A stretch of DNA of 64,000 nucleotides from positions 4,102,886 to 4,166,885 of the forward strand of contig NC_019697.1 of NCBI RefSeq assembly GCF_000317145.1, in the 5' to 3' direction. A program made the translations under genes and the position numbers. Shown piece after piece: positions 11,918-32,762 of the stretch; the stretch's first letter is position 1; every line of letters starts with the position of its first letter. This DNA comes from Chamaesiphon minutus PCC 6605. Its GTDB lineage: Bacteria > Cyanobacteriota > Cyanobacteriia > Cyanobacteriales > Chamaesiphonaceae. Under the pieces are notes generated by a model. The model was given only the letters and a program-made list of their open reading frames with translations. It searched no databases and was not told the origin of the DNA.

Positions 11918-12100
11918 ATAGCGACTAGTAGTCTACGGCGTAAATAAGGTTACTATTTTGCGGGGAGCGATGCGCGCACGCCTTTGTTTCCCGACGGGTT
12001 AGCGCATCAGCGACGCATCGACCTGGAGGTTCCCTCCAGGTTGTGTGCGTCAAGACAAGACAGCGGGGAAAGAAATGGTTGGTTAATTTCTGCCGCATAG
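11918..12100. repeat. MITE-like composite repeat, copy A (conserved ends, variable core)
   Basis: The 5' end tagtagtctacggcgtaaataaggttactattttgcgggg and the 3' end ggggaaagaaatggttggttaatttctgccgcatagtacta recur at 34490-34778. The core carries gacgcatcgacctggaggttccctccagg and gtgtgcgtcaagacaagacag boxes. Confidence 0.5.
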
Positions 12101-12586
12101 TACTAGCTTAATTAAGAGCCGCTCTACATATTGTTTTTTCAATCGATCGTCCGAGCATTGTGATTAATCGATCTCGTGTTTTTCTAACTTAGATACTTAC
12201 ACGATCTGCTCGTAATAGTATCTGTCTTTGGATTGAAGATTGAGAATCAATACCAACCAGCTTTCGCTGTGGAAATCGCTCGATCGGGCTGAGTCAGACC
12301 GATGTTGTCGATTGGCTTTAGACGGCGACGCTCCAGAACATTGGCATAGCAGCTAATTTGCCGATCGAGCTTGTCGCAGTCTCAGTACCAAAGAGCATCA
12401 CGCAGGCTGAAACCACGATCGATAGCGAACCTTCCTACTTGAGATACATGACTATATCTACAGTCGCCAAGTGATAAGATCTTTCGATCGAGAGACTTTA
12501 GGTATTGTAAAAAATTGTTAAAGTTTTATAATCAAAATGTAATAGCTTTTATCCTTTCCGACCCACTCTTACGGCAGTAAATTCTT

Positions 12587-13981: not shown

Positions 13982-14249
13982 CGGAGCGGGGGAGAGGGGT
14001 AGTGGGGGCGCAGGGGAGCAGGGGAGAAGACAGGGTAAGTTAGTTGTCGAGGAAAACATCTTAAATCTTGGTGCTTAGTCATCAACCGCCCTGAAATGAA
14101 TTTTTTCGTTCCGTTCGCGTTGGCGTTGGCGTAACCTGACGTAGGCACAGCGTTTGCCTTAGCAAAAAGGCTACGCCAACGGACTAATACCAATTCTCTA
14201 AATTACTGCTACAGATCTTTACCCCTCCCAACCTCCCCTTATAAAAGGG

Positions 14250-14413
14250 CTACGGTGTATACACAAGTCTGGATAAAAGCGAAAACCCTAGAAATCCCCC
14301 TAAATCCCCCTTAAAAAGGGGGACTTCCGGATCTAGTTCCCCCCTTAAAAAGGGGGGTTAGGGGGGATTCAGATCTCGAAACGAAGTCCAACAAACTTGT
14401 GTATACACCGTAG
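14250..14413. mobile_element. MITE with perfect 19-bp terminal inverted repeats
   Basis: ctacggtgtatacacaagt at 14250-14268 matches acttgtgtatacaccgtag at 14395-14413. Internal palindromes cccccttaaaaaggggg. Partial relatives lie at 21361-21470 and 40726-40790. Confidence 0.6.
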
Positions 14414-14767
14414 TATAAAACGGAGGAGCAAATTCTAGAGCTTTATCTGTAGTCCAATTTTTTAGATTTGGTATAACAGCGAAAGTTCGCTTCAGCGAAC
14501 TAAAGTGTTTTCCCTGCAATAAGCTAAGCGTAGGGGAGGGCTTCGTGCCCAACTCACCAAACTTATCACCAGTCAAACCCTACCCCGTAGCAACTAAGTC
14601 CGAACCGACCCCATACCCCACTTAGCACCAACAACCTACATACGCAGGGGAGTTTGAGGGGCGGCGACCGAAATCGCGCTGAGGTCTCCTCAGCGTGCGT
14701 TTCGGTCAAGACGCGTCCCGCCCCTCAACGGGGGGTCTGGGGGTCGGCACCCCCAGATCCGGGTTCT

Positions 14768-14915
14768 ACAGCACCAAAAGCGATCGAAACAAAGCCCCAT
14801 CTTCCACAGCACCAAAAGCGATCGAAACAAAGTTCCATCTTCCACCGTACTAAAAGCGATCGAAAGAAAGCCCCATCTTCCACAGTACCAAAAGCGAAAC
14901 AAAGCTCCATACCCC
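14768..14915. repeat. Tandem repeat of about 38 bp, 3.9 copies, upstream of the RND pump gene
   Basis: acagcaccaaaagcgatcgaaacaaagccccatcttcc repeated head-to-tail with point variants. Each unit carries a HIP1-like gcgatcg core. Confidence 0.7.
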
Positions 14916-14973
14916 AGCTAACAAACCAAACATTCAGACCCTCCCCGCAGGGGAGCAAGCATAAATCACCACC

Positions 14974-17900
14974 ATGCAAAACCCCCCCGCCCCCACCTTC
15001 AGCCTCAGCACCCTCTCCATCCGCCAATATATCGGCACCCTCATGTTGACCCTTACCGTCATCATCGTCGGTATCTACTTCACCACCCAACTCCCCGTCG
15101 ATCTCCTCCCGTCCATCACCTACCCCCGCATCGGCGTCCGCCTCCAATCCCCAGGCATCTCCCCCGAAGTCGCCATCGACGAAATCACCCGCCCCCTCGA
15201 AGAAGCCCTCGCCACCACCGACGGCGTAGTCCAAATCTACTCCCAAACCCGCGAAGGCCAAGTCAACCTCGACCTCTACTTCAACCCCGGTAGCAACATC
15301 GACCAAGCCCTCAACGACACCACCGCCGCCTTCAACCGCAATCGCAACCAACTACCAGACTCGATCGAAGAACCCCGCCTGTTTAAAATCGACCCATCCC
15401 AACTCCCCGTCTACGAACTAGCTCTGACCGCACCTTCATTAAAGGATGTAGACCTACGCATCTTCGCTGACGAAGAACTCTCCCGCGAACTGAGTATCGT
15501 CGATGGTGTCGCTTCCGCCGATGTCTCTGGCGGCGTCCAAGAAGAAGTCCGTGTCGATATCGATCTCAATCGCCTCCAATCTTTGGGAATCAGCCTTCCC
15601 ACAGTTCTCGAACAACTCACCCAACGCAACCAAGACGTCTCTGGCGGACGCATTCGCGGCGATAGCTCCGAACCTCTCACCCGTGCCGTCGGACGCTTTC
15701 AGAATGCCAGCGAGATTCGCGATCTCGCTTTTGCTACAGGCGGACAATCGGCTGCCAGTAACACTACCCCTTCTGCGACTACCACCGCCACAACCACCCA
15801 AACTACTCCGACACAGCAAGTCTATCTGCGAGATTTTGCCACAGTCACCGATGGCACCGAAGAAGAGCGAGTACTCGTCAATCTCAACCGCCAAAAAGCA
15901 GTCAAAATCAGCGTTCAGAAACAGTCTGATGCCAATACAGTATCGGTCGTCGATGCTGTCAAAGCCAAGATCGCGCAATTGCGAACATCGGGTGTCATTC
16001 CCGCCGACATGGTAATCACACCGACATTGGACGAATCGGTCTTCATTCGCAACTCGCTGGCAGATGTAATTATCTCTGGTTTATCTGGCGCGCTCCTAGC
16101 AGCAATTTCGGTATTTATCTTTTTAGGCTCGCTGCGGCAGACATTTATCATCGCCCTCACCATTCCCCTGTGTACTTTAGCAGCCGCGATCGTCATGAAG
16201 TTGAGCGGGTTCTCGCTAAATATTTTTAGTTTGGGGGGATTGGCAATTAGTGTCGGACAAGCGATCGATACTTCAGTCGTAATTCTCGAAAATGTCAGCA
16301 AACGGATCGAAACCCTCAAACTCGATCGCGAAAAAAATGGGTCTAATAGCGATTATGCCCGTGAAGCGATCGCTGCTGTCGAAGATAGCAGTCAAGAAGT
16401 CGAATCCTCCCTCGTCGCCTCCACTGCTGCCAACCTCGTCTCCGTACTCCCCTTCGTACTCGTCGGTGGTTTTATTTCCTTACTATTTAACGAGCTGATT
16501 CTGACGATTTGCTTCGCAGTAGCTGCTTCTCTAATTGTCGCCCTAACGGTCGTCCCAATGTTGTCGGCGCGGCTATTCTCGATCGAACGTACCAGCGGCT
16601 TAAATCGGCTGTGGTTCTTGCGGGCATTCGATCGACGGCTCGAAGGTGGTACGCGCATTTATGGTAATGTCCTCGCCAAAGCGATCCGCCGTCCGGCGAT
16701 CCTCGTCGTAACCGCATTCGTCCTGCTCGGTGGTAGCGGTTTTCTCATGGCAGGGCAAATTCCCCAAGAAATCCTCCCCCGCATTAGTACCGGACAAGCC
16801 AACGTCAACGTCCAATTTCCCTCCGGGACCTCACTCGCTACCAACCGTCGCGTCATGGCAGCAGTTGACGACGTACTACTCAAACAACCAGAGACACAAT
16901 ATGTGTTCACTACCGCTGGCGGTTCGCTCTTTGGCAATACCGTCTCCTCCAACCCCTCCCGCAGTACTGGTAGCGTCACTCTCAAACCCGGTAGCGACAT
17001 TCAAGACTTCACCGAACGTACCACCCGCGAACTCAATCGGCTCAACCTCGCTGGAATTCGCGTCCGGGTGTCCGCAGGTTCTGTGCGTGGCTTGATCTTA
17101 AATAACTCACCCGTGCGGGGAGCCGAAGTAGATGTCGTGCTTCAGGGGCAAAATGCCGAAGTCCTGACGCGTGCAGGACGGCAAGTATTGGCCGCTCTGG
17201 ACGATCGGGTGAAATTATCTGCTTTTCGTCCCGATGCCGACGATCGCCAGCCAGAAGTCCAAATTCGCCCCAATTGGGAGCGTGCTAACGCCCTGGGTCT
17301 GACCACTCAATCGATCGGTAGCACCATCCAAACCGCGATCGAAGGTTCCGTCCCCACCCAGTTACAACGCAACGAGCGACTAGTCGATGTCCGGGTGCAG
17401 TTGAACCAATCCCTGCTCAAACAACCCTCTCAGCTTGCACAAATCCCCCTATTTGTCAATAACAATTCCCTAGTCCGGTTGAGCGATGTCGCCACAATTT
17501 CTGAAGGACAGGCTCCCGGCGAAATTCAACGCATCAACCAACGCCCTGTCTTTATCATCGCGGGCAACCTGAATAAGGGCGCGAGTCTGGGCGCAGCTAT
17601 AGCCGAAGTCCAACAGATCGTTTCCACCCTCGATTTACCCGACGGCGTGACGTTGCTCCCTAGCTACGCCGGACAAACCAACCAAGAACTCCAAAGCGCG
17701 CTGGTATCGCTAGGCGGTTTAGCAGCCTTCTTAGTCTTCGTGGTCATGGCAGTTCAATACAACTCGATTATCGACCCGCTGGTGATTATTTTGACCGTCC
17801 CCTTGGCCTTAGTCGGGGGATTATTGGGCTTGTATATCACCCAAACTGCGATCGGGATTACCGTTGTCGTCGGTGCGGTGCTACTGGTGGGAATCGTCGT

Positions 17901-18252
17901 CAACAACGCTATCATCATGGTCGAAACTGCCAACCAAATCCGCGAAGAAGAAGGACTCGATCGACATAATGCCATCCTCAAAGCAGCCCCCCAACGCCTC
18001 CGCCCGATTCTGATGACCACTGTCACCACCGTCTTAGGACTATTCCCCCTCGCCCTCGGTATCGGCGAAGGCTCGGAATTTTTGCAACCATTAGGGATTG
18101 TTGTCTTCTCCGGCTTAACCCTCGCCACCCTACTGACGCTATTTATCATCCCCTGCTTTTACGTCCTGCTCCATGACATTTTTAAATGGGGCATGGGCAT
18201 CGGATCGCGCGATCGAAAGCATCCGTTACTCACTTCGGATCGTCATTCATAA
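14974..18252 (+). CDS. RND multidrug/heavy-metal efflux permease (AcrB/HAE1 family)
   Basis: 1092 aa with 12-TM RND architecture and conserved segments (GLSGALLAAISVFIFLGS, AVQYNSIIDPLVIILTVPLALVGG). Has a Thr-rich low-complexity insert in a periplasmic loop. Confidence 0.9.
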   Translation: MQNPPAPTFSLSTLSIRQYIGTLMLTLTVIIVGIYFTTQLPVDLLPSITYPRIGVRLQSPGISPEVAIDEITRPLEEALATTDGVVQIYSQTREGQVNLDLYFNPGSNIDQALNDTTAAFNRNRNQLPDSIEEPRLFKIDPSQLPVYELALTAPSLKDVDLRIFADEELSRELSIVDGVASADVSGGVQEEVRVDIDLNRLQSLGISLPTVLEQLTQRNQDVSGGRIRGDSSEPLTRAVGRFQNASEIRDLAFATGGQSAASNTTPSATTTATTTQTTPTQQVYLRDFATVTDGTEEERVLVNLNRQKAVKISVQKQSDANTVSVVDAVKAKIAQLRTSGVIPADMVITPTLDESVFIRNSLADVIISGLSGALLAAISVFIFLGSLRQTFIIALTIPLCTLAAAIVMKLSGFSLNIFSLGGLAISVGQAIDTSVVILENVSKRIETLKLDREKNGSNSDYAREAIAAVEDSSQEVESSLVASTAANLVSVLPFVLVGGFISLLFNELILTICFAVAASLIVALTVVPMLSARLFSIERTSGLNRLWFLRAFDRRLEGGTRIYGNVLAKAIRRPAILVVTAFVLLGGSGFLMAGQIPQEILPRISTGQANVNVQFPSGTSLATNRRVMAAVDDVLLKQPETQYVFTTAGGSLFGNTVSSNPSRSTGSVTLKPGSDIQDFTERTTRELNRLNLAGIRVRVSAGSVRGLILNNSPVRGAEVDVVLQGQNAEVLTRAGRQVLAALDDRVKLSAFRPDADDRQPEVQIRPNWERANALGLTTQSIGSTIQTAIEGSVPTQLQRNERLVDVRVQLNQSLLKQPSQLAQIPLFVNNNSLVRLSDVATISEGQAPGEIQRINQRPVFIIAGNLNKGASLGAAIAEVQQIVSTLDLPDGVTLLPSYAGQTNQELQSALVSLGGLAAFLVFVVMAVQYNSIIDPLVIILTVPLALVGGLLGLYITQTAIGITVVVGAVLLVGIVVNNAIIMVETANQIREEEGLDRHNAILKAAPQRLRPILMTTVTTVLGLFPLALGIGEGSEFLQPLGIVVFSGLTLATLLTLFIIPCFYVLLHDIFKWGMGIGSRDRKHPLLTSDRHS

Positions 18253-24579: not shown

Positions 24580-26640
24580 ATGATGTCAACTGCTAAAACC
24601 AATCGTTTCCTTCAAGATTTAGATCGAGTTGCGAGAGTGCGCCAAGAAGTAGCTAGTTCCCTCAGCCGGATGGTAACCAAGCTCCAGAAATCCGAACTCG
24701 CCGCCCAGACTGGATCTGGAGAAATGGGATTCGATCGAGATTTAGCAGATCTAACCAAAGCCAGTACCAATCTCCAAAAAGGTGTCTTTCGGTTGATGGT
24801 ATTGGGCGATATGAAACGGGGCAAAAGTACGTTTCTGAATGCTTTAATCGGTGAAAATATCTTACCGAGCGATGTCAATCCCTGCACGGCATTATTGACA
24901 GTCTTGCGCTATGGCGAACAGAAAAAAGTCACCGTTCATTTCAAAGATGGTAAGCCACCAGAATCGATAGATTTTAGTACGTTTAAAACTAAATACACCA
25001 TCGATCCGGCTGAAGCTAAGAAATTGGAAGAAATTAACAAACCTGCTTTCCCTGATGTCGATTATGCCGTGGTGGAATATCCCCTAGAATTACTTTCTAA
25101 AGGGATCGAAATCATCGATAGTCCCGGCTTGAATGATACCGAAGCGCGCAATGAATTATCGCTGGGATATCTGAATAATTGCCATGCAGTTTTATTCGTC
25201 CTCAGTGCGTCTCAACCTTGCACTTTAGGCGAACGTCGCTATCTCGAAAACTATGTCAAAGATCGCGGCTTGAGCGTATTTTTTCTCATCAATGCTTGGG
25301 ATCGCGTCAAAGAATCATTAATCGATCCCGATGATGCGACAGAATTGGCAGAAGCCGAAGGCAAACTAAATCGCGTATTTAAAGCGAATTTAGCTGAATA
25401 TTGTACGGTGGATGGCTACGATCTCTACGACGAGCGCGTATTTCCCTTATCTTCGATTACCGCACTCCGAAAACGGCTCAAAGATAAAGACGCCGATCTC
25501 GTAGGGACTGGCTTTCCACCCTTTATTAATGCTCTGAATACATTTTTGACGCAAGAGCGGGCGATTGCCGAATTGCGTCAAGCACGAATTATTGCCAAAC
25601 AAACTTGTACCCACGTCAAAGAAGCAGTCGCGCGGCGAATCCCGTTATTAGATACCAATGTAGACGAACTCAAAGCCAAAATTGCCGCAGTCGAACCGCA
25701 GTTTAATCAGCTCCAGTCAATTCGCGATGGTTTTCGCGATGATATTCGCCGCGTCCGCGATCGTCAAGCTCGATCGATCGCCGATTCGATGAAAGTATAT
25801 TTAATGAAATTGGAAGATACTTTCGAGGCAGATTTTCAAGCTTATCAACCTTCAGATATCCAATTCCTGGACTTCTTTAGTGACAATAAACGCGAACAAT
25901 TCAATCAATCAGCCCAGAAAGGATTTCAACAATATATTAATGATAAGTATTCTGCTTGGACGCTCTCAGCCCAAAAAGAATTAACCACTGCTTTCAGCGA
26001 ACTAGCGGAACAAGCCAAGAAATATGGAGTAGATTATCAAAACATCACTCAAGAGATGGCGGAGAAGCTGACAGGTAAAATCCATACCCGCAATAATGCC
26101 CTCGAAGATGATGGTACGCCAGCTTGGGCAAAGTGGGCGATGGGCTTATTTTCCTTAGCGACTGGTAATTTTGGGATCGCGGCTTTGGCTGTGGGTGGCT
26201 TCAATTTTCAAAGCATCATGCTCAATGTCTTTACTACTGCGGGAATTGCACTAGTCTTTGGTGCATTACTCGGTCCGATCGGAATTATCGTCGCTAGTTT
26301 AGGTGTTGCAGCGTTCCAAGTCGATCATGCCCGAAAATATTTTAGCCAGGAAATCAAGAAACAATTAGTCGCTAAGTTACCAGAGATTTCTAGAGAACAA
26401 TGGCAACCGATTTATAGTGCAGTACAAGAGTGTTTCGATAGTTACGAACGGGAAGCGATCGAACGAATCGATGATGATATCAAAACTCGCAAAATCGAGC
26501 TACAAAATCTCGTCAAGCAGAAGGAATCTCAAGAGATCGATCGAGTTACGGAAGTCAATCGGTTACAACAGTTTGAAGCTGATGTGTTGAGTGAATCACT
26601 CTCGATCGAGAATTTTTATCAAGGCTTCTTAAATGGTTAA
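24580..26640 (+). CDS. Bacterial dynamin-like protein 1 (BDLP-type large GTPase with membrane paddle)
   Basis: G1 LGDMKRGKSTF, G3 DSPGLND, G4-like INAWD. The long helical stalk and the hydrophobic paddle GLFSLATGNFGIAALAVGGF...GIALVFGALLGPIGIIV match the NosBDLP architecture. Confidence 0.85.
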   Translation: MMSTAKTNRFLQDLDRVARVRQEVASSLSRMVTKLQKSELAAQTGSGEMGFDRDLADLTKASTNLQKGVFRLMVLGDMKRGKSTFLNALIGENILPSDVNPCTALLTVLRYGEQKKVTVHFKDGKPPESIDFSTFKTKYTIDPAEAKKLEEINKPAFPDVDYAVVEYPLELLSKGIEIIDSPGLNDTEARNELSLGYLNNCHAVLFVLSASQPCTLGERRYLENYVKDRGLSVFFLINAWDRVKESLIDPDDATELAEAEGKLNRVFKANLAEYCTVDGYDLYDERVFPLSSITALRKRLKDKDADLVGTGFPPFINALNTFLTQERAIAELRQARIIAKQTCTHVKEAVARRIPLLDTNVDELKAKIAAVEPQFNQLQSIRDGFRDDIRRVRDRQARSIADSMKVYLMKLEDTFEADFQAYQPSDIQFLDFFSDNKREQFNQSAQKGFQQYINDKYSAWTLSAQKELTTAFSELAEQAKKYGVDYQNITQEMAEKLTGKIHTRNNALEDDGTPAWAKWAMGLFSLATGNFGIAALAVGGFNFQSIMLNVFTTAGIALVFGALLGPIGIIVASLGVAAFQVDHARKYFSQEIKKQLVAKLPEISREQWQPIYSAVQECFDSYEREAIERIDDDIKTRKIELQNLVKQKESQEIDRVTEVNRLQQFEADVLSESLSIENFYQGFLNG

Positions 26641-26669
26641 TCTGTAGTAATTGCATCTGAAATATAGAT

Positions 26670-26686
26670 GGTGGGCAATGCCCACC
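26670..26686. terminator. GC hairpin ggtgggcaatgcccacc after BDLP1; an inverted twin at 27391-27407 follows the next gene
   Basis: 6-bp GC stem with a 5-nt loop. The second copy is the exact reverse complement, so the two bracket the SMI1/KNR4 gene. Confidence 0.5.
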
Positions 26687-26710
26687 CTGCACCTTTTTTA
26701 CCACTTTCTC

Positions 26711-27367
26711 ATGTCTAAACTTCTTGAAGAACTTGCATATATTTTTGAATGGCTAGAATATACAGTTCCAGACTTAGCCGATCGCTACAATCCAGGTTTG
26801 ACGCGCCAACAGATCGATAATCTAGTTAAAGATTTACCATTTAGGTTGAGCGAGGAAGTTTACGAGCTTTATCGATGGCGAAATGGAGAATCTGACTTCG
26901 GTTATTATAACGGCGAATGTATGGTAGATTTTCTATTCCCCGACCATCACATTTCAGGAAATTTATCGATACCTTTTTGGCCTTTGCAAGATGCTATTAA
27001 AACCTATTGTAAATTATGGAAGATGGAAGAATCAAATCTGAAAAATCCACCTTATGAAGGTGCCCATCTCTGGGATCGAAAATGGTTTCCAATTGCTTCA
27101 ATGGAAAACAAAAGCATGTTAATTGTTGTTGGCGATCTCAATCCATCACCCATTTATCAGATTGAGTACGTTTTTCACGATCGTCCATTAAGAGTTTACA
27201 AAAGCTTAACCAGCATGATTTCTACGATCGCAGAATGCTGTGAATCAGATTTATACAAACTTATCAGAGATGATGACGATGAAAAAGAAGAAATGTTTTT
27301 TTACATCAAGTTAGACGAGGAAAAGCAAGAAGCAGAGAAAGATACATACAAAAAATACAACTCTTGA
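26711..27367 (+). CDS. SMI1/KNR4 (SUKH-1 superfamily) protein; orphan immunity-like gene
   Basis: Likely start MSKLLEELAY (the upstream part of the track ORF spans the hairpin). Conserved YRWRNGE and WF blocks typical of SMI1/KNR4. No adjacent toxin gene. Confidence 0.65.
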   Translation: MSKLLEELAYIFEWLEYTVPDLADRYNPGLTRQQIDNLVKDLPFRLSEEVYELYRWRNGESDFGYYNGECMVDFLFPDHHISGNLSIPFWPLQDAIKTYCKLWKMEESNLKNPPYEGAHLWDRKWFPIASMENKSMLIVVGDLNPSPIYQIEYVFHDRPLRVYKSLTSMISTIAECCESDLYKLIRDDDDEKEEMFFYIKLDEEKQEAEKDTYKKYNS

Positions 27368-27616
27368 AGAGCGATATTGTCAGCTCGTAGGGTGGGCATT
27401 GCCCACCATCTTAATTAACGATCGAGCTAAATATCTAAAAGTATCTAAACCTAAACTAACAAATTACTTAACTCGATCGATCCTGGATTTGTCACCCCTC
27501 ACCCACCGATATTGGGACAGAAACTTATGTAGACCATCTATGATGGAATAATCCATATATATTTGTGGACGATGACAACGCAATTTAACCGCTCCTTACC
27601 CAAACCATCTACGAAC

Positions 27617-27931
27617 ATGAAAGTGACACTTCTGGTAGAAACTATCCAACCTGGAAAAGTTGCTGCTTCTGTCTTGGAGTTTCCCGATTCTCGGATTGAA
27701 GCTGAAACTAGAGAAAGCGCGATTTCTCAATTACAGGCTAACTTTTTAGAACGACTCAAGCGGCTAGAAGCAATTTCCTGGAATATTCCTGTCAATGCTT
27801 CAAATAACATGGGGATGGAGTTTGTGGGTGTCTTTCAAGACGATCCAGATTTTCAGGCGATATCTAGAGATCTCTTAGCCGAACGCGCCTCAGAAGACGA
27901 TTCTGAAGTCGATCCGTCGTATTATGCCTAG
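27617..27931 (+). CDS. Type II antitoxin, HicB/UPF0150-like fold
   Basis: Start MKVTLLVETIQPGKVAASVLEFPDSRIEAETRESAI, an N-terminal beta-alpha module with an acidic C-terminus. Sits 12 bp upstream of a PIN toxin. Confidence 0.5.
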   Translation: MKVTLLVETIQPGKVAASVLEFPDSRIEAETRESAISQLQANFLERLKRLEAISWNIPVNASNNMGMEFVGVFQDDPDFQAISRDLLAERASEDDSEVDPSYYA

Positions 27932-27942
27932 AGGTAGATCTC

Positions 27943-28365
27943 TTGTCTAAATATATATTGGATACCGACCATATATCGCTCATCTTATTTAACCATCCTC
28001 AAGTTACAGAAAATGCGGCAAAACATCAAATTGCGACTTCGATCGTGACAGTGCAAGAACTCTTTAACGGCTGGATTGGGCAAATTAACGATCCAGCACA
28101 AATCAATAATTTACCTGCCTTATACTCCAAACTATCTACCACTCTAAAGTACCTACAGACTGTGGAAGTTTTAGACTTTACTGTAGAAGCGGATGAGTGC
28201 TTGAAAAATCTATTAAGTGCCAATCCACCTTTACGGAAGAATCGTCTGCAAAAAGACATGCGAATTGCGGCGATCGCATTATCTTTAGATCTTACTGTTG
28301 CCACACGCAATCGTAAAGATTTTGAATTAGTACCCAATCTCAATCTCGTCGATTGGACTCAGTAA
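27943..28365 (+). CDS. vapC: PIN-domain ribonuclease toxin (VapC-like)
   Basis: ILDTDHISL (the first catalytic Asp), further acidic residues at VQELFNG and KDMRIAAIA, and a final TRNRKDF. Confidence 0.8.
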   Translation: MSKYILDTDHISLILFNHPQVTENAAKHQIATSIVTVQELFNGWIGQINDPAQINNLPALYSKLSTTLKYLQTVEVLDFTVEADECLKNLLSANPPLRKNRLQKDMRIAAIALSLDLTVATRNRKDFELVPNLNLVDWTQ

Positions 28366-28490: not shown

Positions 28491-30167
28491 ATGAATTCCT
28501 CACTCATCACCCACCTCCAAACTGCTGCTAACAAGCTGGAAATCGACCAAAACTCTAGATTGGGTAACGATCTCAAAACGCTTGCCAGTAAAGCAGGTCG
28601 ATCGAATTATCAAATTGCCGTATTTGGCCCCTTCAATCATGGTAAATCGACATTATTGAATGCGATCTTAGGCAATAAAACATTACCGATCGATCTGATT
28701 CCGACGACGGGTGCGGCGATTAAAGTTGTCTATGGTGAAGATATTGCGACGAAAATTACCCTAACTAATGGGCAAATCATCGCGGCTAAGAATACCGATA
28801 TTTTAACTGAATTTGCGATCCTAGATAACGATCGACGGATGCGGGATGATGTGTTAGAAGTCGAGGTAAGTTTTCCCCATCCGTTTTTACAGACTGGGGT
28901 TGAATTAATCGATTTACCAGGTACGAACGATCGCGACGAGCAGGATAACTTAGTACGCGATCGATTATTGGCGGCGGATTTGGTGGTAAATGTGTTAGAT
29001 GTACGTAAATTGATGACGCTCGGCGAGCGCGAACATCTGCGGGATTGGTTAGAAAATCGTGGGATTAATACCGTGGTATTCGTGGCGAATTTTACGAATA
29101 TGTTGGAGCCAGAAGAACAAAAAGAAGTTCAACATCGCCTCCGATTTGTCGCTGAGAGTTTTCGCTCTCAATTACCACCAGGGATTAGCAACCTCTATCG
29201 AGTTGACGCGCTCCCTGCTCTACGCGCTCGCCTGAAGGGTGACGACGCGACTTTGCATACTTCGGGGTTATCCTCATTTATTTCGGCACTCCAGGCGATT
29301 GTGTCGCACCAGCGCGAGAAACTAGCCGAGGTGCGGATGCCTGTGCTGCAATCGTTGGGATTAGAAATTCAAGGATTATTACGATCGCAGATTGCCAAAT
29401 TGACGGCAGAAGTTAACGAAACTAAAGAGAAGTGCGATCGAGAATTAGCCCTCAAGCGTCAAGCGCAAACATTAATCCAATCTGGATGGGAAACCAGCCT
29501 CAAAGAAGTCGAGCAGTGGTTATATTTACCCAACCTGATTAGCTTCTATCAGTCGCCATTAACTACGGCGATTCAAAAAAATGGATTTGGGGAATGGGAA
29601 TCGAGTAACGTCCGTCCGCGATTGCAACATTCTCAGCAAGAAATTAACGATTGGGTTACTAAAGCCGAAAGCTTTTTTAATACTTCTCCAGTCGAACCCC
29701 TAAAGATCGTTTTACCCGATCCGCCTGAAGTCTTATTACCAGAATCACCAACTCAATCTCCACCAAAACCTACAACACCATCTTCAACAATCGATAATTT
29801 GGCACCCACCGCACTGGCAACTGGCTTAGGCTGGATACTCGGAGGGCCAATAGGAGCGGTCGTTGCTGGCGGTGCGAGTACGATTGCAAATAAGCGATCG
29901 GGAGATCGATCTTCGGACAACACTAGTAATAGTAAAACTCCCGATAACTCGGCAGAGATTTTAGAAGCTTATACCGATGCGGCGGCTGATTATTTATTTA
30001 GACTAAATACTGAAACGATCAAGACAATTAAAGCCTATCGCGATCGAGCGGCTGCGGCTATTAATCCAGAAATTAAGCTCGATCGCCAGGTCGATTTGCA
30101 TCAACAACAAAACTTAACAGATTTAGAACGCTGCTTGGCAGATGTATTAGCTTCAGCCTCAGCGTAA
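28491..30167 (+). CDS. Bacterial dynamin-like protein 2 (partner large GTPase)
   Basis: G1 FGPFNHGKSTL, G2/G3 PTTG and DLPGTND, NVLD. A helical stalk and a Gly-rich hydrophobic tip ALATGLGWILGGPIGAVVAGGAS. Confidence 0.8.
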   Translation: MNSSLITHLQTAANKLEIDQNSRLGNDLKTLASKAGRSNYQIAVFGPFNHGKSTLLNAILGNKTLPIDLIPTTGAAIKVVYGEDIATKITLTNGQIIAAKNTDILTEFAILDNDRRMRDDVLEVEVSFPHPFLQTGVELIDLPGTNDRDEQDNLVRDRLLAADLVVNVLDVRKLMTLGEREHLRDWLENRGINTVVFVANFTNMLEPEEQKEVQHRLRFVAESFRSQLPPGISNLYRVDALPALRARLKGDDATLHTSGLSSFISALQAIVSHQREKLAEVRMPVLQSLGLEIQGLLRSQIAKLTAEVNETKEKCDRELALKRQAQTLIQSGWETSLKEVEQWLYLPNLISFYQSPLTTAIQKNGFGEWESSNVRPRLQHSQQEINDWVTKAESFFNTSPVEPLKIVLPDPPEVLLPESPTQSPPKPTTPSSTIDNLAPTALATGLGWILGGPIGAVVAGGASTIANKRSGDRSSDNTSNSKTPDNSAEILEAYTDAAADYLFRLNTETIKTIKAYRDRAAAAINPEIKLDRQVDLHQQQNLTDLERCLADVLASASA

Positions 30168-30357
30168 CTGTGCCTAAAAAAAATAGATATTTATTTCATA
30201 CTTTTAGCTTAAATTCATCCATAAAACAAATTGTGTATGTTATATTGGAAGGTAGACATCAATAAGATTGCAGACAAATGTTCTGATTCTAGATATCTGA
30301 CTGGTGCGCCAACCTGTGGTTTGAGCGTATACCGTCACGCATGATTATTAGTCGATC

Positions 30358-30426
30358 GTGCGATTAGCTTAGTGGTAAAGCAGCCGAGGTATCGGTCGAG
30401 CCTGGGTTCGAGTCCCAGATCGCACA
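30358..30426 (+). tRNA. Degenerate tRNA-like gene (Thr-GGU-like body, 4-nt anticodon loop)
   Basis: Perfect 7-bp acceptor stem gtgcgat/atcgcac, D arm gctt-agtggta-aagc, and T arm ctggg-ttcgagt-cccag. The anticodon arm is gccga-ggta-tcggt: the loop has 4 nt, as if ct and a were deleted from ctggtaa. Confidence 0.45.
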
Positions 30427-30626
30427 GCTAGCTCGCCCACATTAGAATTGTGAGCATTGGGAATGGTTTGCATTAAAAGCCAAGTGGTTAGAAACCGCTC
30501 CTCGGAATGCAAAGTCCGCCTTCACGGACTGAGATAATAGTCCGCGAAGGCGGACTTTGCAACCCCAGGCGCGATTTTAATCGCTGGCTCCACTGGTTCC
30601 ACAATTTTAATCTGGGCGAGCTAGTA
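30426..30626. mobile_element. MITE-like insert between the two tRNA-like genes, 27-bp TIRs
   Basis: agctagctcgcccacattagaattgtg versus cacaattttaatctgggcgagctagta (24 of 27 match). It carries a perfect 12-bp nested hairpin gcaaagtccgcc...ggcggactttgc at 30509-30560. Confidence 0.5.
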
Positions 30627-30631
30627 CCTCC

Positions 30632-30707
30632 CAAAAGTTAGCTCATTAGGTAGAGCAGTTGACTATTAATCAACGTGTAACAGGTTCGATTCCTGTACTT
30701 TTCACCA
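30632..30707 (+). tRNA. tRNA-like gene with Asn-like body and an anomalous AUU anticodon; encoded CCA
   Basis: D arm gctc-attaggta-gagc. Anticodon arm gttga-CTATTAA-tcaac, so anticodon ATT at 30665-30667. Variable loop gtgta, T arm acagg-ttcgatt-cctgt, acceptor caaaagt/acttttc with a C1-C72 mismatch, then a-cca. Confidence 0.55.
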
Positions 30708-31238
30708 AATCCTCCAGCCAACGAGGTAAAAGTTAGGCGACTTCTTAGGGTGAAGTTGGCGAAAGCCAAAACCTATGCCTAAAGGTTAGATTAGGCACCC
30801 TACTCATAATAGGCGGCGCAAGCCACAAGCGGTACGAGAGAAATCTCAAAATGGTTCGAGTCCATTATTTTCAACTCTGGAAAGTTGGCGTTTTGGTAAT
30901 ATTTAGTCGCTTAGCGATCGAATATTGCAACAGATTTTGTACCGACAATCGCGTGCATCTTTAATTCGAGTATCTGCCTTCATCTGCTAGGGTTGGTATT
31001 TCTTCGGGAATACTAGTTTTAGTCGAGCGAACGCGATATTTGCTAGTTAGAGTCGATCGAGTTATCTTCGGATAGCGCGATTCGACAACTGCTAACTCAA
31101 TCCAATTTTAGATAAACCCTTCGTCCGTCACAAAGCTGTCGAAAACGCCAGCAATTACAGAGTTAACCAAAGCGAAAAAATTTCAATTCTATTCTCCATC
31201 GTAGGTTGGGTAGAGCGAAGCGAAACCCAACAAGCAAT

Positions 31239-32762
31239 ATGTTTAAAACATTCTACATCAAACCTCACGAGCGAGGTATATTATTCAACCGTAGCGATTT
31301 TAAGGCGATTTTATCACCTGGTACGCATCGTTATTTCGGCTGGGATTGGAGCGTCAAGACATACGATCTCAATCACCCAGAAGCGCAAATCGAACAATTA
31401 GAACTGCTCCTGCAAACCGATCGCGATAAACTAGAGCCACACCTGACGATCGTGCGGACGGAATTCGATCGAGTCGCTTTACTTCAAGTCAAACAAAGTT
31501 GGATCGTAGTCGCTCCTAACCAATTGCGCGCTTTTTGGAAAGGATTTATCCCCGTCGAAGTGCGGTACTTCAATCTATCCGAAAGTTTGGAATTACCACC
31601 AGATCTAGTCGAAAAAACGCGCGGATTTGCCCTCAGTGGTATCAAAAAATTTCAGGTGTCCGAATCAGAAATCGGTTTGATGTACGTCCAGCATAATTTC
31701 GTGCGTCCGTTGGGAACTGGTGAATATGCTTTTTGGTCATCGTCAAAAGATTTGCAATTTAAGACGCTCAATCGGATGATTCCGAATCCAGTATTCCCCG
31801 ATGAAGATGTCTTAATCGATCGACACCCCGAATTTATCGCGCAGTATTGCACCGTTGTCGAAACATTAGCGCAACAAGTTGGCATCGTCCGCGATAGGCA
31901 ACAACCGATCGCGATTTTACCACCCCACAGTCGCAAATTATTTTGGCAAGGCGTGACGGTAGAAACGATCGATATTAGCAACGATGCGAAACTTTCCAAT
32001 CCATTAGTTGCCGAATTAGTATCGGGGAAAGACCAGATTAAAAAGCTCGCCAATGATGCCCTCCACGTCCGTGAAGTGCCCGTCCAACATCTGGGCTTCT
32101 TGTATGTCGATCGGGTATTTCAGACGCAGCTAGAGCCAGGAATCCATGCCTGGTGGACATTCAATCGATCGTTTACATCGATCGCGATCGATATGCGCCT
32201 GCAAAATATGGAAATTTCGGGACAAGATATTCTCACCAAAGATAAAGTCCCCGTGCGGCTAAATCTCACCGCTGGCTATCGGATTAGCGATCCGTTGCAG
32301 GCGATGAATAATTTGGCAAATATCAACGGCTTTTTATACAAAGAGCTTCAGTTCGCCCTGCGTGGAGCCGTGGGCGAGCGGACTCTGGATGGAGTACTGG
32401 AAGATAAAGGCACGATCGATCGCGATATTGCCGAATATATCCGTGTCAAGACTGCCAATTATGGCTTGACAGTCGAATCTGTCGGCGTCAAAGATATCAT
32501 CCTCCCTGGGGAAATCAAAACCATCCTCAGCAAGGTAGTCGAAGCAGAGAAATCTGCGCAAGCCAACGTCGTCCGCCGTCGAGAGGAAACCGCCGCTACT
32601 AGGAGTATGCTAAATACTGCCAAAGTGATGGAAGAAAACCCCGTCGCGCTGCGATTGAAAGAGTTGGAAATCTTAGAACGCATCGCCGAAAAGATCGATC
32701 GTATCCAAGTCAATGGCAGTTTAGACAACATCCTAACCGATCTAATCAACATCAAAAAGTAA
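31239..32762 (+). CDS. SPFH/band-7 (stomatin/flotillin-like) protein with three tandem N-terminal SPFH-like modules
   Basis: Three repeats of the ..G.L.V.R.F...L.PG.H..W motif (HERGILFNRSDFKAILSPGTHRYFGW; GLMYVQHNFVRPLGTGEYAFW; GFLYVDRVFQTQLEPGIHAWW). The third continues into a full band-7 core (VKDIILPGEIKTILSKVVEAEKSAQANVV...) and a C-terminal coiled coil. Confidence 0.75.
   Translation: MFKTFYIKPHERGILFNRSDFKAILSPGTHRYFGWDWSVKTYDLNHPEAQIEQLELLLQTDRDKLEPHLTIVRTEFDRVALLQVKQSWIVVAPNQLRAFWKGFIPVEVRYFNLSESLELPPDLVEKTRGFALSGIKKFQVSESEIGLMYVQHNFVRPLGTGEYAFWSSSKDLQFKTLNRMIPNPVFPDEDVLIDRHPEFIAQYCTVVETLAQQVGIVRDRQQPIAILPPHSRKLFWQGVTVETIDISNDAKLSNPLVAELVSGKDQIKKLANDALHVREVPVQHLGFLYVDRVFQTQLEPGIHAWWTFNRSFTSIAIDMRLQNMEISGQDILTKDKVPVRLNLTAGYRISDPLQAMNNLANINGFLYKELQFALRGAVGERTLDGVLEDKGTIDRDIAEYIRVKTANYGLTVESVGVKDIILPGEIKTILSKVVEAEKSAQANVVRRREETAATRSMLNTAKVMEENPVALRLKELEILERIAEKIDRIQVNGSLDNILTDLINIKK

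What the first reader, a model, noticed from the sequence alone, without database searches (positions are those of the whole stretch)
30358..30707. Two anomalous tRNA-like genes (4-nt anticodon loop; Asn-like with AUU anticodon) flanking a MITE
Both fold as tRNAs, with perfect acceptor and T arms and GGTTCGAnTCC T-loops, but neither looks decodable as a normal tRNA. The first has anticodon arm gccga-ggta-tcggt, i.e. a 4-nt loop (a Thr-GGU-like body with 3 nt missing). The second has loop cuAUUaa (A34; no standard bacterial tRNA uses AUU), a C1-C72 mismatch and an encoded CCA. A 200-bp MITE with 27-bp TIRs lies exactly between them. Degenerate tRNAs inside an island are classic integration scars, or they could be decoys or have non-canonical roles.
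Basis: seen in the sequence. Interest (0 to 1): 0.6.

Follow-up and report, generated by a model that had tools for sequence, protein, structure and literature searches.

The report
Band-7-associated tRNA mimics, not scars
The two odd tRNA-like genes are real, but they are conserved, non-decoding tRNA look-alikes that travel with a particular SPFH/Band-7 protein gene from cyanobacteria to Pseudomonas and Burkholderia, a predicted but functionally untested RNA class called b7a-tRNA that is linked to RNA repair.

Summary
ARAGORN and Rfam call two tRNA-like genes at 30358-30426 (4-nt anticodon loop) and 30632-30707 (AUU, C1·C72, encoded CCA), separated by a 197-bp inverted-repeat element.

The "degenerate scar in an island" reading does not hold. 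Homologues of the downstream SPFH/Band-7 gene (31206-32762) in 75 of 78 informative loci carry one or two tRNA-like genes just upstream on the same strand. These loci span Chamaesiphon, other cyanobacteria, Pseudomonas, Burkholderia, Methylococcaceae and others.

The cloverleaf stems covary (94-95% paired; 15-16 of 21 pairs compensatory), while the anticodon loop is free: 4-7 nt, often GNRA or UUCG tetraloops, and at least 9 different "anticodons". In proteobacteria the module sits behind a sigma-54 promoter between divergent rtcR and rtcB.

[quoted passage not shown] The P. aeruginosa member (PA4581.1) is expressed.

The window adds local detail:
- a stand-alone cyanobacterial module with no RtcB or RtcR within 64 kb;
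- a conserved leader helix;
- a third T-loop domain;
- a repeat element inserted into the first tRNA-like's 3' acceptor strand.

Verdict: a new member of a known, poorly studied kind, of moderate interest.

The parts
30238..30246 (+). Predicted extended -10 promoter box (TG-n-TATATT). The transcription start is inferred at about 30253-30255, roughly 100 nt upstream of the first tRNA-like.
   Evidence: TGnTAnnnT is kept at the same distance in all cyanobacterial loci aligned by eye. The generic sigma-70 scan found nothing on the + strand, so this rests on conservation only and is inferred.
30280..30333 (+). Conserved leader RNA. It has a P0 hairpin (30280-30301, with a T-loop-like UUCUA loop) and a P1 helix GGUGCGC/GCGUAUACC (30303-30309 with 30325-30333) that has a 2-nt bulge and encloses a small hairpin.
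   Evidence: Box A and box B were found in 64 of 81 loci, including the RtcR-linked proteobacterial ones. RNAalifold on 25 sequences gave 9 of 15 pairs with compensatory changes, 6 of them in P0. No Rfam family matches it.
30358..30426 (+). t1, the distal tRNA-like gene. It is a full cloverleaf with an intact D-loop/T-loop elbow and an anticodon arm GCCGA-GGUA-UCGGU (4-nt loop).
   Evidence: The distal-copy alignment of 22 sequences is 95.2% paired against 32-42% in the slid controls, with 16 of 21 pairs compensatory. Only 1 of 23 distal copies has a 7-nt loop.
30428..30624 (.). MITE-like palindromic element inserted into the 3' acceptor strand of t1. It is shared only with L001 (95% identical).
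   Evidence: Terminal repeats. Junction comparison: relatives without the element read ...ATCGTAC-T-CC|CAAAAGT, whereas the window reads ATCG-CAC-AG[CTAG...CTAG]TAC-CTCC|CAAAAGT. Partial copies of its core hairpin lie elsewhere in L006 and L004.
30625..30631 (+). Displaced original 3' end of t1 (TACCTCC), now abutting t2.
   Evidence: Alignment of t1/t2 junctions across 13 Chamaesiphon loci.
30632..30707 (+). t2, the proximal tRNA-like gene (b7a-tRNA proper). It has a tRNA-Lys-like body, loop CUAUUAA, an unpaired C1·C72, discriminator A73 and an encoded CCA.
   Evidence: The proximal-copy alignment of 46 sequences is 94.3% paired against 30-43% slid, with 15 of 21 pairs compensatory, an invariant D-stem, and 1:72 unpaired in 35 of 46. 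The closest canonical relative is E. coli tRNA-Lys(UUU).
30708..30771 (+). A 64-nt partial tandem duplication of the start of the third domain, present only in the window, L001 and L002.
   Evidence: Alignment A3.
30772..30893 (+). Third structured domain. It contains an anticodon-arm-like hairpin with a 7-nt loop CUCAUAA (~30798-30813), GGC-GCAA-GCC (30815-30824), GAGA-GAAA-UCUC (30836-30847) and a T-loop hairpin AAUGG-UUCGAGU-CCAUU (30850-30866).
   Evidence: Invariant blocks across 13 Chamaesiphon loci. RNAalifold found compensatory changes in the anticodon-like and GNRA hairpins. The GGC-GNRA-GCC and T-loop hairpins are also present in L016.
31142..31165 (+). 3' strand of a long-range helix that pairs with 30873-30893 and closes the roughly 250-nt stretch before the SPFH start codon.
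   Evidence: Inverted repeat I12. Both strands are conserved in alignment A3. RNAduplex gives -24.0 kcal/mol. Covariation was not formally tested.
31206..32762 (+). SPFH/Band-7 protein gene, the constant partner of the tRNA-likes. The ORF finder starts at TTG 31206; the conserved ATG at 31239 is the likelier start. No transmembrane segment is predicted.
   Evidence: Pfam Band_7, 9.5e-30. 38-47% identical to the SPFH genes in RtcR/RtcB operons. The ATG is conserved. Maximum 19-residue Kyte-Doolittle score is 1.13.

Best explanation
[quoted passage not shown] These are tRNA-Lys-derived tRNA mimics that do not decode and that are inherited and transcribed together with one soluble SPFH/Band-7 protein.

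Shown:
- The RNAs keep the acceptor, D and T arms, and therefore the L-shape and elbow, under purifying selection, while the anticodon loop drifts or is replaced by a tetraloop.
- They sit on the same strand just upstream of the SPFH gene in almost every homologous locus.
- In proteobacteria the unit lies downstream of a sigma-54 box, between divergent rtcR and rtcB.

Inferred:
- In Chamaesiphon one transcript starts about 100 nt upstream of t1 and runs through the leader helix, t1, t2, a third T-loop domain and the SPFH ORF.
- tRNA-processing enzymes (RNase P and the 3' end-processing enzymes) recognise the cloverleafs and release stable tRNA-sized RNAs.
- These RNAs then work with the SPFH protein as an RNA-protein cofactor or scaffold in the response to tRNA/RNA damage, as Y RNA (YrlA) does with Ro60 in the Salmonella rsr-yrlBA-rtcBA operon. 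They could present a tRNA-shaped surface to repair or processing enzymes, or compete with real tRNA-Lys-type substrates for anticodon nucleases.

The repeat element is a tolerated secondary insertion. A CAC next to its left end, possibly a copy of the target TAC, keeps t1's acceptor stem intact.
For: Association: 72 of 80 loci by ARAGORN plus 3 more by covariance model, giving 75 of 78 informative loci. tRNA-call density is 0.86 per kb in the 1.2 kb upstream on the same strand, against 0.003 per kb-strand elsewhere in the same loci.

Selection on structure.

Free anticodon loop: 37 of 73 proximal copies have tetraloops (GAAA, GCAA, GCGA, UUCG), and 27 have 7-nt loops with at least 9 different anticodons.

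Rtc context: RtcR, RtcB, zf_Tbcl and RlaP by Pfam. RtcR and RtcB each occur in 60 of 64 non-cyanobacterial loci. A sigma-54 box TGGCACG-N4-TCGCT occurs in 58 loci, about 190 nt upstream of the tRNA-like.

Shared family-specific leader between the window and RtcR-linked loci.

Literature: a Band-7 protein plus the predicted b7a-tRNA next to RtcB, stated as not experimentally validated. P. aeruginosa PaFlo8 lies in the rtc locus. PA4581.1, the odd tRNA between rtcR and the rtc cluster, lacks CCA and is detected by qRT-PCR at about 50% of canonical tRNA levels. It was strongly up-regulated in a late CF isolate.

Link to Y RNA: the Rfam YrlA model aligns across the t1 T-arm, the junction and the t2 D-arm in L021 (42 bits, E = 3.5e-8).
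Against: There is no RtcB, RtcR or RlaP within the 64-kb window, nor within +-8 kb in any of the 16 cyanobacterial-type loci. The link to RNA repair is therefore by homology of the SPFH partner, not by local context.

A covariance model built only from RtcR-linked members does not separate the family from real tRNA-Lys. Window t2 scores 64.7 bits, against 75 for E. coli tRNA-Lys(UUU) and 64.5 for Burkholderia tRNA-Lys(CUU).

There is no expression, processing or protein-binding data for this organism. Binding to the SPFH protein has never been shown for any member. The primary 2016 paper could not be read, so its definition is taken second-hand.
Confidence: 0.8

Rival explanations
1. Purely cis-acting leader. 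On this view the tRNA-like folds, leader helix and third domain are 5'-UTR elements of the SPFH mRNA. They would act as processing sites (RNase P cuts define the mRNA 5' end), stabilisers or translational regulators, with no function as separate RNAs.
For: They are always on the same strand and inside the same transcription unit, with the sigma-54 box upstream of them. No terminator-like site lies between t2 and the SPFH start. The spacer is conserved and structured, with a long-range helix ending about 75 nt before the ATG. In E. coli only the leader and a T-arm hairpin remain upstream of the slipin gene.
Against: In P. aeruginosa, PA4581.1 RNA levels were similar in two strains even though the Rtc proteins were strongly induced in one of them. 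That suggests a stable RNA uncoupled from the mRNA. Strict conservation of the whole elbow and acceptor, and an encoded CCA in 8 of 14 cyanobacterial proximal copies, goes beyond what a cleavage signal needs. This view also overlaps the best explanation: co-transcription followed by release.
Confidence: 0.12
2. Working decoder tRNAs. On this view t2 is a tRNA-Lys-type tRNA with anticodon AUU that inserts Lys (or Asn) at AAU codons, and t1 is a specialised or frameshift-type tRNA.
For: t2 has a canonical 7-nt loop with U33 and A37, keeps U35, U36 and A73 (LysRS identity elements, from established knowledge), and has an encoded CCA. Its body is 84% identical to E. coli tRNA-Lys(UUU) over 62 nt.
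Against: Orthologous copies at the same position carry CAU, UAU, GAU, AAU, GUU, UGU, ACG or ACA, or 3-6-nt loops and tetraloops. No codon assignment is conserved. The 1:72 pair is unpaired in 35 of 46 copies. t1's 4-nt loop cannot present an anticodon. Most proteobacterial members lack CCA.
Confidence: 0.04
3. Decaying tRNA pseudogenes or integration-site remnants in a genomic island, with no function.
For: The anticodon loops are abnormal. A repeat element is inserted in the locus. A toxin-antitoxin pair and other variable genes lie nearby. Flanking genes differ between species.
Against: Both are full-length cloverleafs. 15-16 of 21 pairs show compensatory change with 94-95% pairing across cyanobacteria and alpha-, beta- and gamma-proteobacteria. 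Position relative to the SPFH gene is fixed in 75 of 78 loci. No integrase is adjacent. The D-stem and T-loop are invariant.
Confidence: 0.02
4. They are Y RNAs of the YrlA type, serving a Ro60/Rsr protein encoded elsewhere in the genome.
For: YrlA's consensus T-arm and D-arm sequences are nearly the same as the family's invariant arms. The YrlA model gives a sub-threshold hit across a tandem junction in Pseudomonas. The literature notes occasional swaps of partners between b7a-tRNA/Band-7 and YrlA/Rsr.
Against: No YrlA hit at E <= 1 in window 30000-31200. The best hit anywhere is 42 bits against a gathering score of 69. None of the flanking genes is a TROVE/Ro60 protein. The RNAs are ordinary, unpermuted cloverleafs.
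Confidence: 0.02

Closest known systems
b7a-tRNA (band 7-associated tRNA), predicted by Burroughs & Aravind, Nucleic Acids Res 2016; 44:8525. Known here only through Wang et al. 2018, bioRxiv 10.1101/312249.
   Same: [quoted passage not shown] The window's SPFH protein is 38-47% identical over its length to those in RtcR/RtcB operons, and the tRNA-likes occupy the same position and strand.
   Different: There is no RtcB, RtcR or RlaP nearby in the window or in any cyanobacterial-type locus. Here there are two full cloverleafs in tandem plus a third T-loop domain. I could not check whether the 2016 paper describes the tandem copies, the leader helix or the stand-alone modules.
YrlA / bacterial Y RNA with Ro60 (Rsr) in the rsr-yrlBA-rtcBA operon (Chen et al. 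2014, RNA 20:1715; Hughes et al. 2020, Cell Rep)
   Same: A tRNA-mimicking ncRNA encoded beside a proposed scaffold protein in RtcR-controlled RNA-repair operons. The D-arm and T-arm consensus sequences are near-identical. Neither has a decoding function.
   Different: As the Rfam consensus structure shows, YrlA is a permuted tRNA-like domain: T-arm, then a loop-closed acceptor-like hairpin, then D-arm, enclosed by outer helices. From memory, those outer helices form the Ro60-binding stem. The window RNAs are unpermuted cloverleafs, the partner is SPFH rather than TROVE, and the Rfam YrlA model fails its threshold.
PA4581.1 ('tRNA-Arg4') of Pseudomonas aeruginosa (PMC13637947; PMC8743555)
   Same: A family member by context: it lies between rtcR and the SPFH gene PA4582 / PaFlo8. 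L024, from P. paraeruginosa, has the same layout. It is an odd tRNA lacking CCA, and it is expressed.
   Different: It is a single ARAGORN-detectable copy with loop CCACGAA, annotated as a normal tRNA-Arg, and it lies in an Rtc operon under sigma-54 control. Those papers do not connect it to b7a-tRNA.
Canonical tRNA-Lys(UUU)
   Same: It is the best canonical match to t2: 84% over 62 nt, with an almost identical anticodon stem. The family model scores E. coli tRNA-Lys highest among the real tRNAs tested.
   Different: In t2, U34 is A, 1:72 is unpaired, the acceptor stem is A/U-rich, and the anticodon is not conserved among orthologues.
tRNA-Other, the pseudo-tRNA of Bacillus cereus (Ataide, Rogers, Ibba and colleagues; from memory, not checked here)
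   Same: A chromosomally encoded tRNA-like RNA with a non-standard anticodon region and a regulatory rather than decoding role.
   Different: Different lineage, different partner (LysRS1/2) and different context. No SPFH or Rtc link. Recalled from memory only.

Membership tests
b7a-tRNA (band 7-associated tRNA) | A tRNA-like cloverleaf recognised by general tRNA models | tested here: met
   ARAGORN. Rfam tRNA 56.9 and 60.1 bits against a gathering score of 29. The MFE structure is a cloverleaf.
b7a-tRNA (band 7-associated tRNA) | Encoded immediately upstream, on the same strand, of a Band-7/SPFH gene of the subfamily found in RtcB operons | tested here: met
   Band_7 at 9.5e-30. The SPFH protein retrieves 64 non-cyanobacterial homologues, 60 of them flanked by RtcR and RtcB. 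tRNA-likes lie at the same place in 75 of 78 loci.
b7a-tRNA (band 7-associated tRNA) | Neighbourhood contains the RtcB RNA ligase (with RtcR, RlaP or a treble-clef zinc finger) | tested here: not met
   tblastn with RtcR, RtcB, zf_Tbcl and RlaP finds nothing in the 64-kb window or in L001-L016. This is typical of the class, but the name defines it by the Band-7 partner. The rest of the genome was not available.
b7a-tRNA (band 7-associated tRNA) | Shares flanking RNA signature with RtcB-linked members (leader P0 hairpin plus bulged P1 helix). This is my own criterion, not a published one. | tested here: met
   Box A and box B in 64 of 81 loci, including window 30301-30340. Consensus fold with compensatory changes.
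b7a-tRNA (band 7-associated tRNA) | A sequence/structure model of RtcB-linked members recognises it better than it recognises real tRNAs | tested here: inconclusive
   Model R1: t2 64.7 bits, t1 46.1. Against that, E. coli tRNA-Lys(UUU) 75, tRNA-Lys(CUU) 64.5, tRNA-Thr about 61, Val 54, Gly 48.
b7a-tRNA (band 7-associated tRNA) | Expressed as an RNA and bound by, or acting with, the Band-7 protein | not testable with these tools
   Only indirect evidence exists: P. aeruginosa PA4581.1 is detected by qRT-PCR and RNA-seq. No binding data exist for any member.
Canonical decoding tRNA | 7-nt anticodon loop with U33 and a purine at 37 | tested here: not met
   t1 has a 4-nt loop, GGUA. t2 alone meets this (CUAUUAA).
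Canonical decoding tRNA | Anticodon conserved among orthologues | tested here: not met
   At least 9 anticodons and many tetraloops occur at the orthologous position.
Canonical decoding tRNA | Paired 1:72 in an elongator tRNA | tested here: not met
   C1·C72 in t2. Unpaired in 35 of 46 proximal copies. t1 does have G1-C72.
YrlA / Y RNA | Reaches the Rfam YrlA (RF02553) gathering score | tested here: not met
   No hit at E <= 1 in window 30000-31200. The best hit in related loci is 42 bits against 69.
YrlA / Y RNA | Adjacent Ro60/Rsr (TROVE) gene | tested here: not met
   Nine flanking ORFs were scanned with Pfam and none is TROVE. The rest of the genome was not tested.
tRNA-gene integration scar | A partial tRNA 3' fragment duplicated at an island boundary, with an integrase nearby | tested here: not met
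   Both genes are full length. No integrase among the neighbours. The locus is conserved across phyla.
MITE (for the 30428-30624 element) | Terminal inverted repeats, target-site duplication and multiple genomic copies | tested here: inconclusive
   Terminal repeats met: 25 nt, 92%. A possible 3-bp duplication, CAC/TAC, is imperfect and not flush with the repeats. Only partial copies of the core hairpin were found in other loci, and none elsewhere in the window.

The most novel reading that the evidence does not exclude
The whole stretch of about 950 nt from roughly 30253 to the SPFH start could be one multi-domain tRNA-mimicking RNA. Its parts would be a bulged leader helix, two cloverleafs, a third T-loop/anticodon-arm domain and a long-range closing helix. 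It would be the RNA component of a soluble SPFH-protein particle, a Ro-Y-RNA-like or vault-like RNP. In cyanobacteria this particle would act without a linked RtcB ligase, for example as a tRNA-Lys-shaped decoy or sensor against anticodon nucleases. The repeated T-loop hairpins, the one feature retained even in the reduced E. coli version, would be what the protein recognises.
Probability: 0.2. Interest if true: 0.75.

Novelty: new member of a known kind. Interest (0 to 1): 0.45.

Why it matters
b7a-tRNAs were predicted by comparative genomics in 2016 and, as far as the searchable literature shows, have never been characterised. Annotation pipelines either call them ordinary tRNAs (P. aeruginosa 'tRNA-Arg4') or leave them as oddities.

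This locus shows that the tRNA-like plus SPFH pair persists as a self-contained module in cyanobacteria with no adjacent RtcB or RtcR. That argues the RNA-protein pair, not the ligase, is the functional core.

The comparative data also show which parts are under selection: the elbow, the acceptor, the T-loops and a leader helix. The anticodon loop is not. This tells an experimenter what to mutate and what to expect. It gives a concrete entry point into how SPFH scaffolds and tRNA mimics take part in RNA-damage responses, parallel to Ro60 and Y RNA. It also flags a source of false tRNA calls and misleading 'anticodon' assignments in genome annotation.

Tried and rejected
1. Thr-GGU origin of t1 and Asn identity of t2. 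Rejected: orthologous loops do not restore a Thr loop, and t2's body is tRNA-Lys-like.
2. Integration scar or island. Rejected, as set out under the rival explanations.
3. A defence-system role for the SPFH gene. PADLOC gave no hit for it, and NCBIfam gave only weak sub-threshold HflK/HflC hits.
4. Phage origin. tblastn of the SPFH protein against 50,697 phage records found nothing.
5. Generic sigma-70 and terminator scan. Uninformative.
6. My first sigma-54 regular expression was too strict and found nothing. A pattern based on the observed TGGCACG-N4-TCGCT found 58 loci.
7. The first neighbour-gene clustering was confounded by spurious overlapping ORFs in high-GC genomes. I redid it with non-overlapping ORFs and tblastn.
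8. Family-specific covariance model as a membership test. It does not separate the family from tRNA-Lys.
9. The Rfam matches of the repeat element to MIR4374 and CRISPR-DR28 are far below threshold. I regard them as hairpin look-alikes.
10. The primary 2016 paper could not be retrieved by DOI or PMC id.
11. Conservation of the upstream dynamin-like genes. They are present only in the two closest relatives, so they are not part of the module.
Full report
OBSERVATION. ARAGORN calls two genes on the + strand: 30358-30426 ('tRNA-???', a two-base 'anticodon' in a 4-nt loop) and 30632-30707 ('tRNA-Asn', anticodon att). Rfam's tRNA model scores them 56.9 and 60.1 bits against a gathering score of 29. 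Its alignment shows 4 nt in place of the 7-nt anticodon loop in the first, and a non-standard 1:72 pair in the second. Each folds into a cloverleaf as its minimum-free-energy structure (-26.5 kcal/mol, z = -3.0; -15.7 kcal/mol, z = -1.9). Between them lies a 197-bp element with 25-nt terminal inverted repeats (92% complementary) and an inner hairpin with 39-nt arms. I call the genes t1 and t2.

CONTEXT IN THE WINDOW. The window comes from a Chamaesiphon cyanobacterium; the downstream gene is 96% identical to one in C. polymorphus CCALA 037. Upstream lie two dynamin-like GTPase genes, with a SUKH-family gene and a PIN-toxin pair between them. Downstream lie an SPFH/Band-7 protein gene (31206-32762), a carbonic anhydrase gene and an MFS transporter gene. 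No integrase is adjacent.

THE KEY RESULT: A CONSERVED PARTNERSHIP. I used the SPFH protein to fetch 80 homologous loci from species-representative genomes and scanned them for tRNAs.
- Fifteen of the 16 cyanobacterial-type loci have the same tandem pair 380-640 nt upstream of the SPFH gene on the same strand. In all but L001 the two genes abut, 0-3 nt apart. The sixteenth, L004, is cut by a contig end.
- The more distant loci also have one or two odd tRNA-like genes 170-330 nt upstream on the same strand. These come from Burkholderia, Paraburkholderia, Pseudomonas, Ralstonia, Methylococcaceae, Gallionellaceae, Rhodocyclaceae, a Thiotrichaceae and a Rhodobacteraceae.
- Adding copies found with a covariance model, 75 of 78 informative loci carry a cloverleaf there.
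- ARAGORN calls are about 280 times denser in that 1.2-kb stretch than elsewhere in the same loci.

SELECTION ON STRUCTURE, NOT ON THE ANTICODON. In an alignment of 46 proximal copies, 94.3% of cells form standard pairs, against 30-43% when partners are slid. Fifteen of 21 pairs show compensatory changes, the D-stem GCUC/GAGC and the T-loop are invariant, and the 1:72 position is unpaired in 35 of 46. Twenty-two distal copies give 95.2% pairing, with 16 of 21 pairs compensatory.

The anticodon loop, by contrast, is unconstrained.
- Among 73 proximal copies, 37 have 4-nt loops: GAAA 19, GCAA 11, GCGA 4, UUCG 2 and CUCG 1.
- Another 27 have 7-nt loops with at least nine different 'anticodons': CAU is commonest, and UAU, AUU, GAU, AAU, GUU, UGU, ACG and ACA also occur.
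- Only 1 of 23 distal copies has a 7-nt loop.

The window's GGUA loop recurs in four other assemblies and its AUU loop in two, so neither is an assembly error. These are not decaying pseudogenes and they are not decoders.

WHAT THE MODULE BELONGS TO. In the proteobacterial loci, the divergent upstream gene is RtcR (PF06956 plus a sigma-54 AAA+ domain). Downstream of the SPFH gene come a treble-clef zinc-finger protein, the RNA ligase RtcB and the RlaP nucleotidyltransferase. RtcR and RtcB are each present in 60 of 64 non-cyanobacterial loci, and RlaP in 32. A sigma-54-type -24/-12 box (TGGCACG-N4-TCGCT) lies about 190 nt upstream of the tRNA-like in 58 loci. That places the tRNA-likes inside the RtcR-dependent transcription unit.

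[quoted passage not shown] The primary paper is not in the library. Two further points from the literature:
- A 2026 survey of P. aeruginosa SPFH proteins notes that PaFlo8 is embedded in the rtc locus.
- The P. aeruginosa tRNA-like is annotated as 'tRNA-Arg4' (PA4581.1). It lacks CCA, is detected by qRT-PCR at about half the level of canonical tRNAs, and its level did not follow Rtc induction. It was among the most up-regulated genes in a late cystic-fibrosis isolate. Neither paper connects it to b7a-tRNA.

HOW THE WINDOW DIFFERS. None of the 16 cyanobacterial-type loci has RtcR, RtcB or RlaP within +-8 kb, and the 64-kb window has none either. The dynamin-like genes are shared only with the two closest relatives. 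In these organisms the tRNA-like pair plus the SPFH gene is therefore a self-contained module that keeps together while its surroundings change. The SPFH protein has no predicted membrane segment, which from my knowledge is unusual for this superfamily. It has no specific model in PADLOC or NCBIfam and no homologue in 50,697 phage records.

EXTENDED ANATOMY.
(a) Promoter. An extended -10 box (TGnTAnnnT; window 30238-30246) is conserved in all cyanobacterial loci, about 110 nt before t1. It is inferred to be the promoter.

(b) Leader. A leader RNA precedes the tRNA-likes in 64 of 81 loci, from cyanobacteria to beta- and gamma-proteobacteria. It has a hairpin P0 (window 30280-30301) and a bulged helix P1 (GGUGCGC with GCGUAUACC, 30303-30309 and 30325-30333). 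Its consensus fold has 9 of 15 pairs with compensatory changes. Rfam has no family for it.

(c) A third domain after t2. After t2 comes a conserved domain (30772-30893) with an anticodon-arm-like hairpin, two GNRA-capped hairpins (one of which covaries) and a T-loop hairpin AAUGG-UUCGAGU-CCAUU. A 64-nt partial duplication (30708-30771) is limited to the window, L001 and L002. A long-range helix pairs 30873-30893 with 31142-31165 (-24 kcal/mol).

(d) Reduced forms of the distal copy. In Burkholderia and several other lineages the distal copy is reduced to an acceptor/T-arm 'minihelix'. In E. coli, where a slipin plus nucleotidyltransferase locus is complete in 1,629 of 5,426 genomes, only the sigma-54 box, the leader and one T-arm hairpin remain.

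(e) SPFH start codon. The real SPFH start is probably the conserved ATG at 31239.

THE REPEAT ELEMENT. Relatives without it read ...ATCGTAC-T-CC|CAAAAGT across the t1/t2 junction. The window and L001 read ...ATCG-CAC-AG[CTAG...CTAG]TAC-CTCC|CAAAAGT. The element is therefore inserted inside t1's 3' acceptor strand. The CAC to its left, possibly an imperfect copy of the target TAC, restores a perfect 7-bp acceptor stem. The original 3' end (TACCTCC, 30625-30631) now sits next to t2. The element is 95% identical in L001, and partial copies of its core hairpin occur elsewhere in L006 and L004. It is a secondary, tolerated insertion and not part of the system.

RELATION TO REAL tRNAs AND TO Y RNA. 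t2's best canonical match is E. coli tRNA-Lys(UUU): 84% over 62 nt, with a near-identical anticodon stem. A covariance model built only from RtcR-linked proteobacterial copies gives these scores:
- window t2: 64.7 bits
- window t1: 46.1 bits
- E. coli tRNA-Lys(UUU): 75 bits
- Burkholderia tRNA-Lys(CUU): 64.5 bits
- tRNA-Thr: about 61 bits
- tRNA-Val: 54 bits
- tRNA-Gly: 48 bits

The family therefore looks like a tRNA-Lys derivative, and sequence alone cannot define membership. Context and the shared leader do.

The Rfam YrlA (Y RNA-like) model gives a sub-threshold hit (42 bits against 69; E = 3.5e-8) that runs from t1's T-arm through the t1/t2 junction into t2's D-arm in Pseudomonas. YrlA's consensus arms match the family's invariant arms. 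This links the class to the tRNA-mimic domain of YrlA, but it does not make these RNAs Y RNAs.

MECHANISM. Shown:
- conserved L-shape-forming arms with a free anticodon loop;
- obligatory linkage to one SPFH subfamily, on the same strand;
- placement inside RtcR/sigma-54 RNA-repair operons in proteobacteria;
- expression of one family member.

Inferred:
- co-transcription from about 30253;
- recognition of the cloverleafs by tRNA-processing enzymes, releasing tRNA-sized RNAs;
- action together with the soluble SPFH protein as a scaffold, cofactor or decoy in the response to tRNA/RNA damage, by analogy with Ro60 and YrlA.

RtcR in Salmonella is activated by damaged tRNA fragments, and YrlA has been suggested as a possible competitive inhibitor of the anticodon nuclease. 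From my knowledge, tRNA-Lys is a classic anticodon-nuclease target (PrrC), which makes a nuclease-proof tRNA-Lys look-alike an attractive decoy or sensor. This is speculation.

I put 0.8 on 'b7a-tRNA-class non-decoding tRNA mimics functionally tied to the SPFH gene', and much less, about 0.4, on the specific RNP/decoy mechanism. The rivals are a purely cis-acting leader (0.12), real decoders (0.04), pseudogenes or scars (0.02) and Y RNAs (0.02).

VERDICT. The scar/island interpretation is not supported, but the 'non-canonical role' alternative is. The feature is a new member, a stand-alone cyanobacterial version, of a known but experimentally untouched class. Interest is moderate, at 0.45.

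Noticed in passing
window 30280-30333 (and 64 of 81 related loci): A conserved leader RNA upstream of the tRNA-likes: a P0 hairpin with a T-loop-like loop, plus a bulged P1 helix (CUGGUGCGC ... GCGUAUGCCGCC). It is shared from cyanobacteria to beta- and gamma-proteobacteria and is absent from Rfam. I could not tell whether it has been described before.
   Followed up: partly
window 30772-30893, with partial duplicate 30708-30771: A third structured domain after t2, containing an anticodon-arm-like hairpin (loop CUCAUAA), GGC-GCAA-GCC, a covarying GNRA hairpin and a T-loop hairpin. It may be a heavily remodelled third tRNA-like. The GGC-GNRA-GCC and T-loop hairpins also occur in L016.
   Followed up: partly
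window 30873-30893 with 31142-31165: A long-range complementarity (17 bp, -24 kcal/mol) encloses the last ~250 nt of the leader and ends about 75 nt before the conserved ATG at 31239. Both strands are conserved in Chamaesiphon. Covariation was not tested.
   Followed up: partly
L021 7619-7723 (Pseudomonas putida): The Rfam YrlA (Y RNA-like) model gives a sub-threshold hit (42 bits; gathering score 69) spanning the 3' half of the first tRNA-like and the 5' half of the second. This suggests an evolutionary link between tandem b7a-tRNAs and the permuted tRNA-like domain of YrlA.
   Followed up: partly
L018, L019, L027, L037, L039, L044, L047, L067, L077: about 50 nt immediately upstream of the proximal tRNA-like: In Burkholderia and several other lineages the distal tRNA-like is reduced to an acceptor-stem plus T-arm 'minihelix' (for example GGGCGC...CCCGGGTTCGAATCCCGGGGCGCCCACC) that tRNA finders miss.
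   Followed up: no
L082 3180-3330 (E. coli, between the DUF3811 gene and lysC): A slipin (SPFH) plus nucleotidyltransferase locus, complete in 1,629 of 5,426 complete E. coli genomes. It keeps the sigma-54 box, a leader hairpin with box A/B-like sequence and a lone T-arm hairpin (TGGGTTCGATTCCCA), but has no full tRNA-like. No RNA feature appears among the annotated features listed under the match in five complete RefSeq genomes.
   Followed up: partly
window 24580-26640 and 28491-30167: Two bacterial dynamin-like GTPase genes with weak PADLOC matches to LeoA/LeoBC of the Eleos defence system. A SUKH-family gene and a PIN-toxin pair (26651-28365) sit between them. The GTPase genes are conserved only in the two closest relatives.
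   Followed up: partly
L006 5913-6010 and L004 3275-3326: Partial copies (about 80% identical) of the core hairpin of the window's 30428-30624 element lie at unrelated positions in other Chamaesiphon contigs. The palindromic core is therefore a dispersed repeat.
   Followed up: partly
L016 19-2313: In the contig labelled as a Deinococcus MAG, the leader / tRNA-like pair / SPFH module lies directly downstream of a valyl-tRNA synthetase gene.
   Followed up: no
window 12001-16000: A stretch with higher G+C (0.52-0.53) and strongly negative GC skew (down to -0.24) compared with the rest of the window. It overlaps long ORFs at 12587-13981 and 14974-18252.
   Followed up: no
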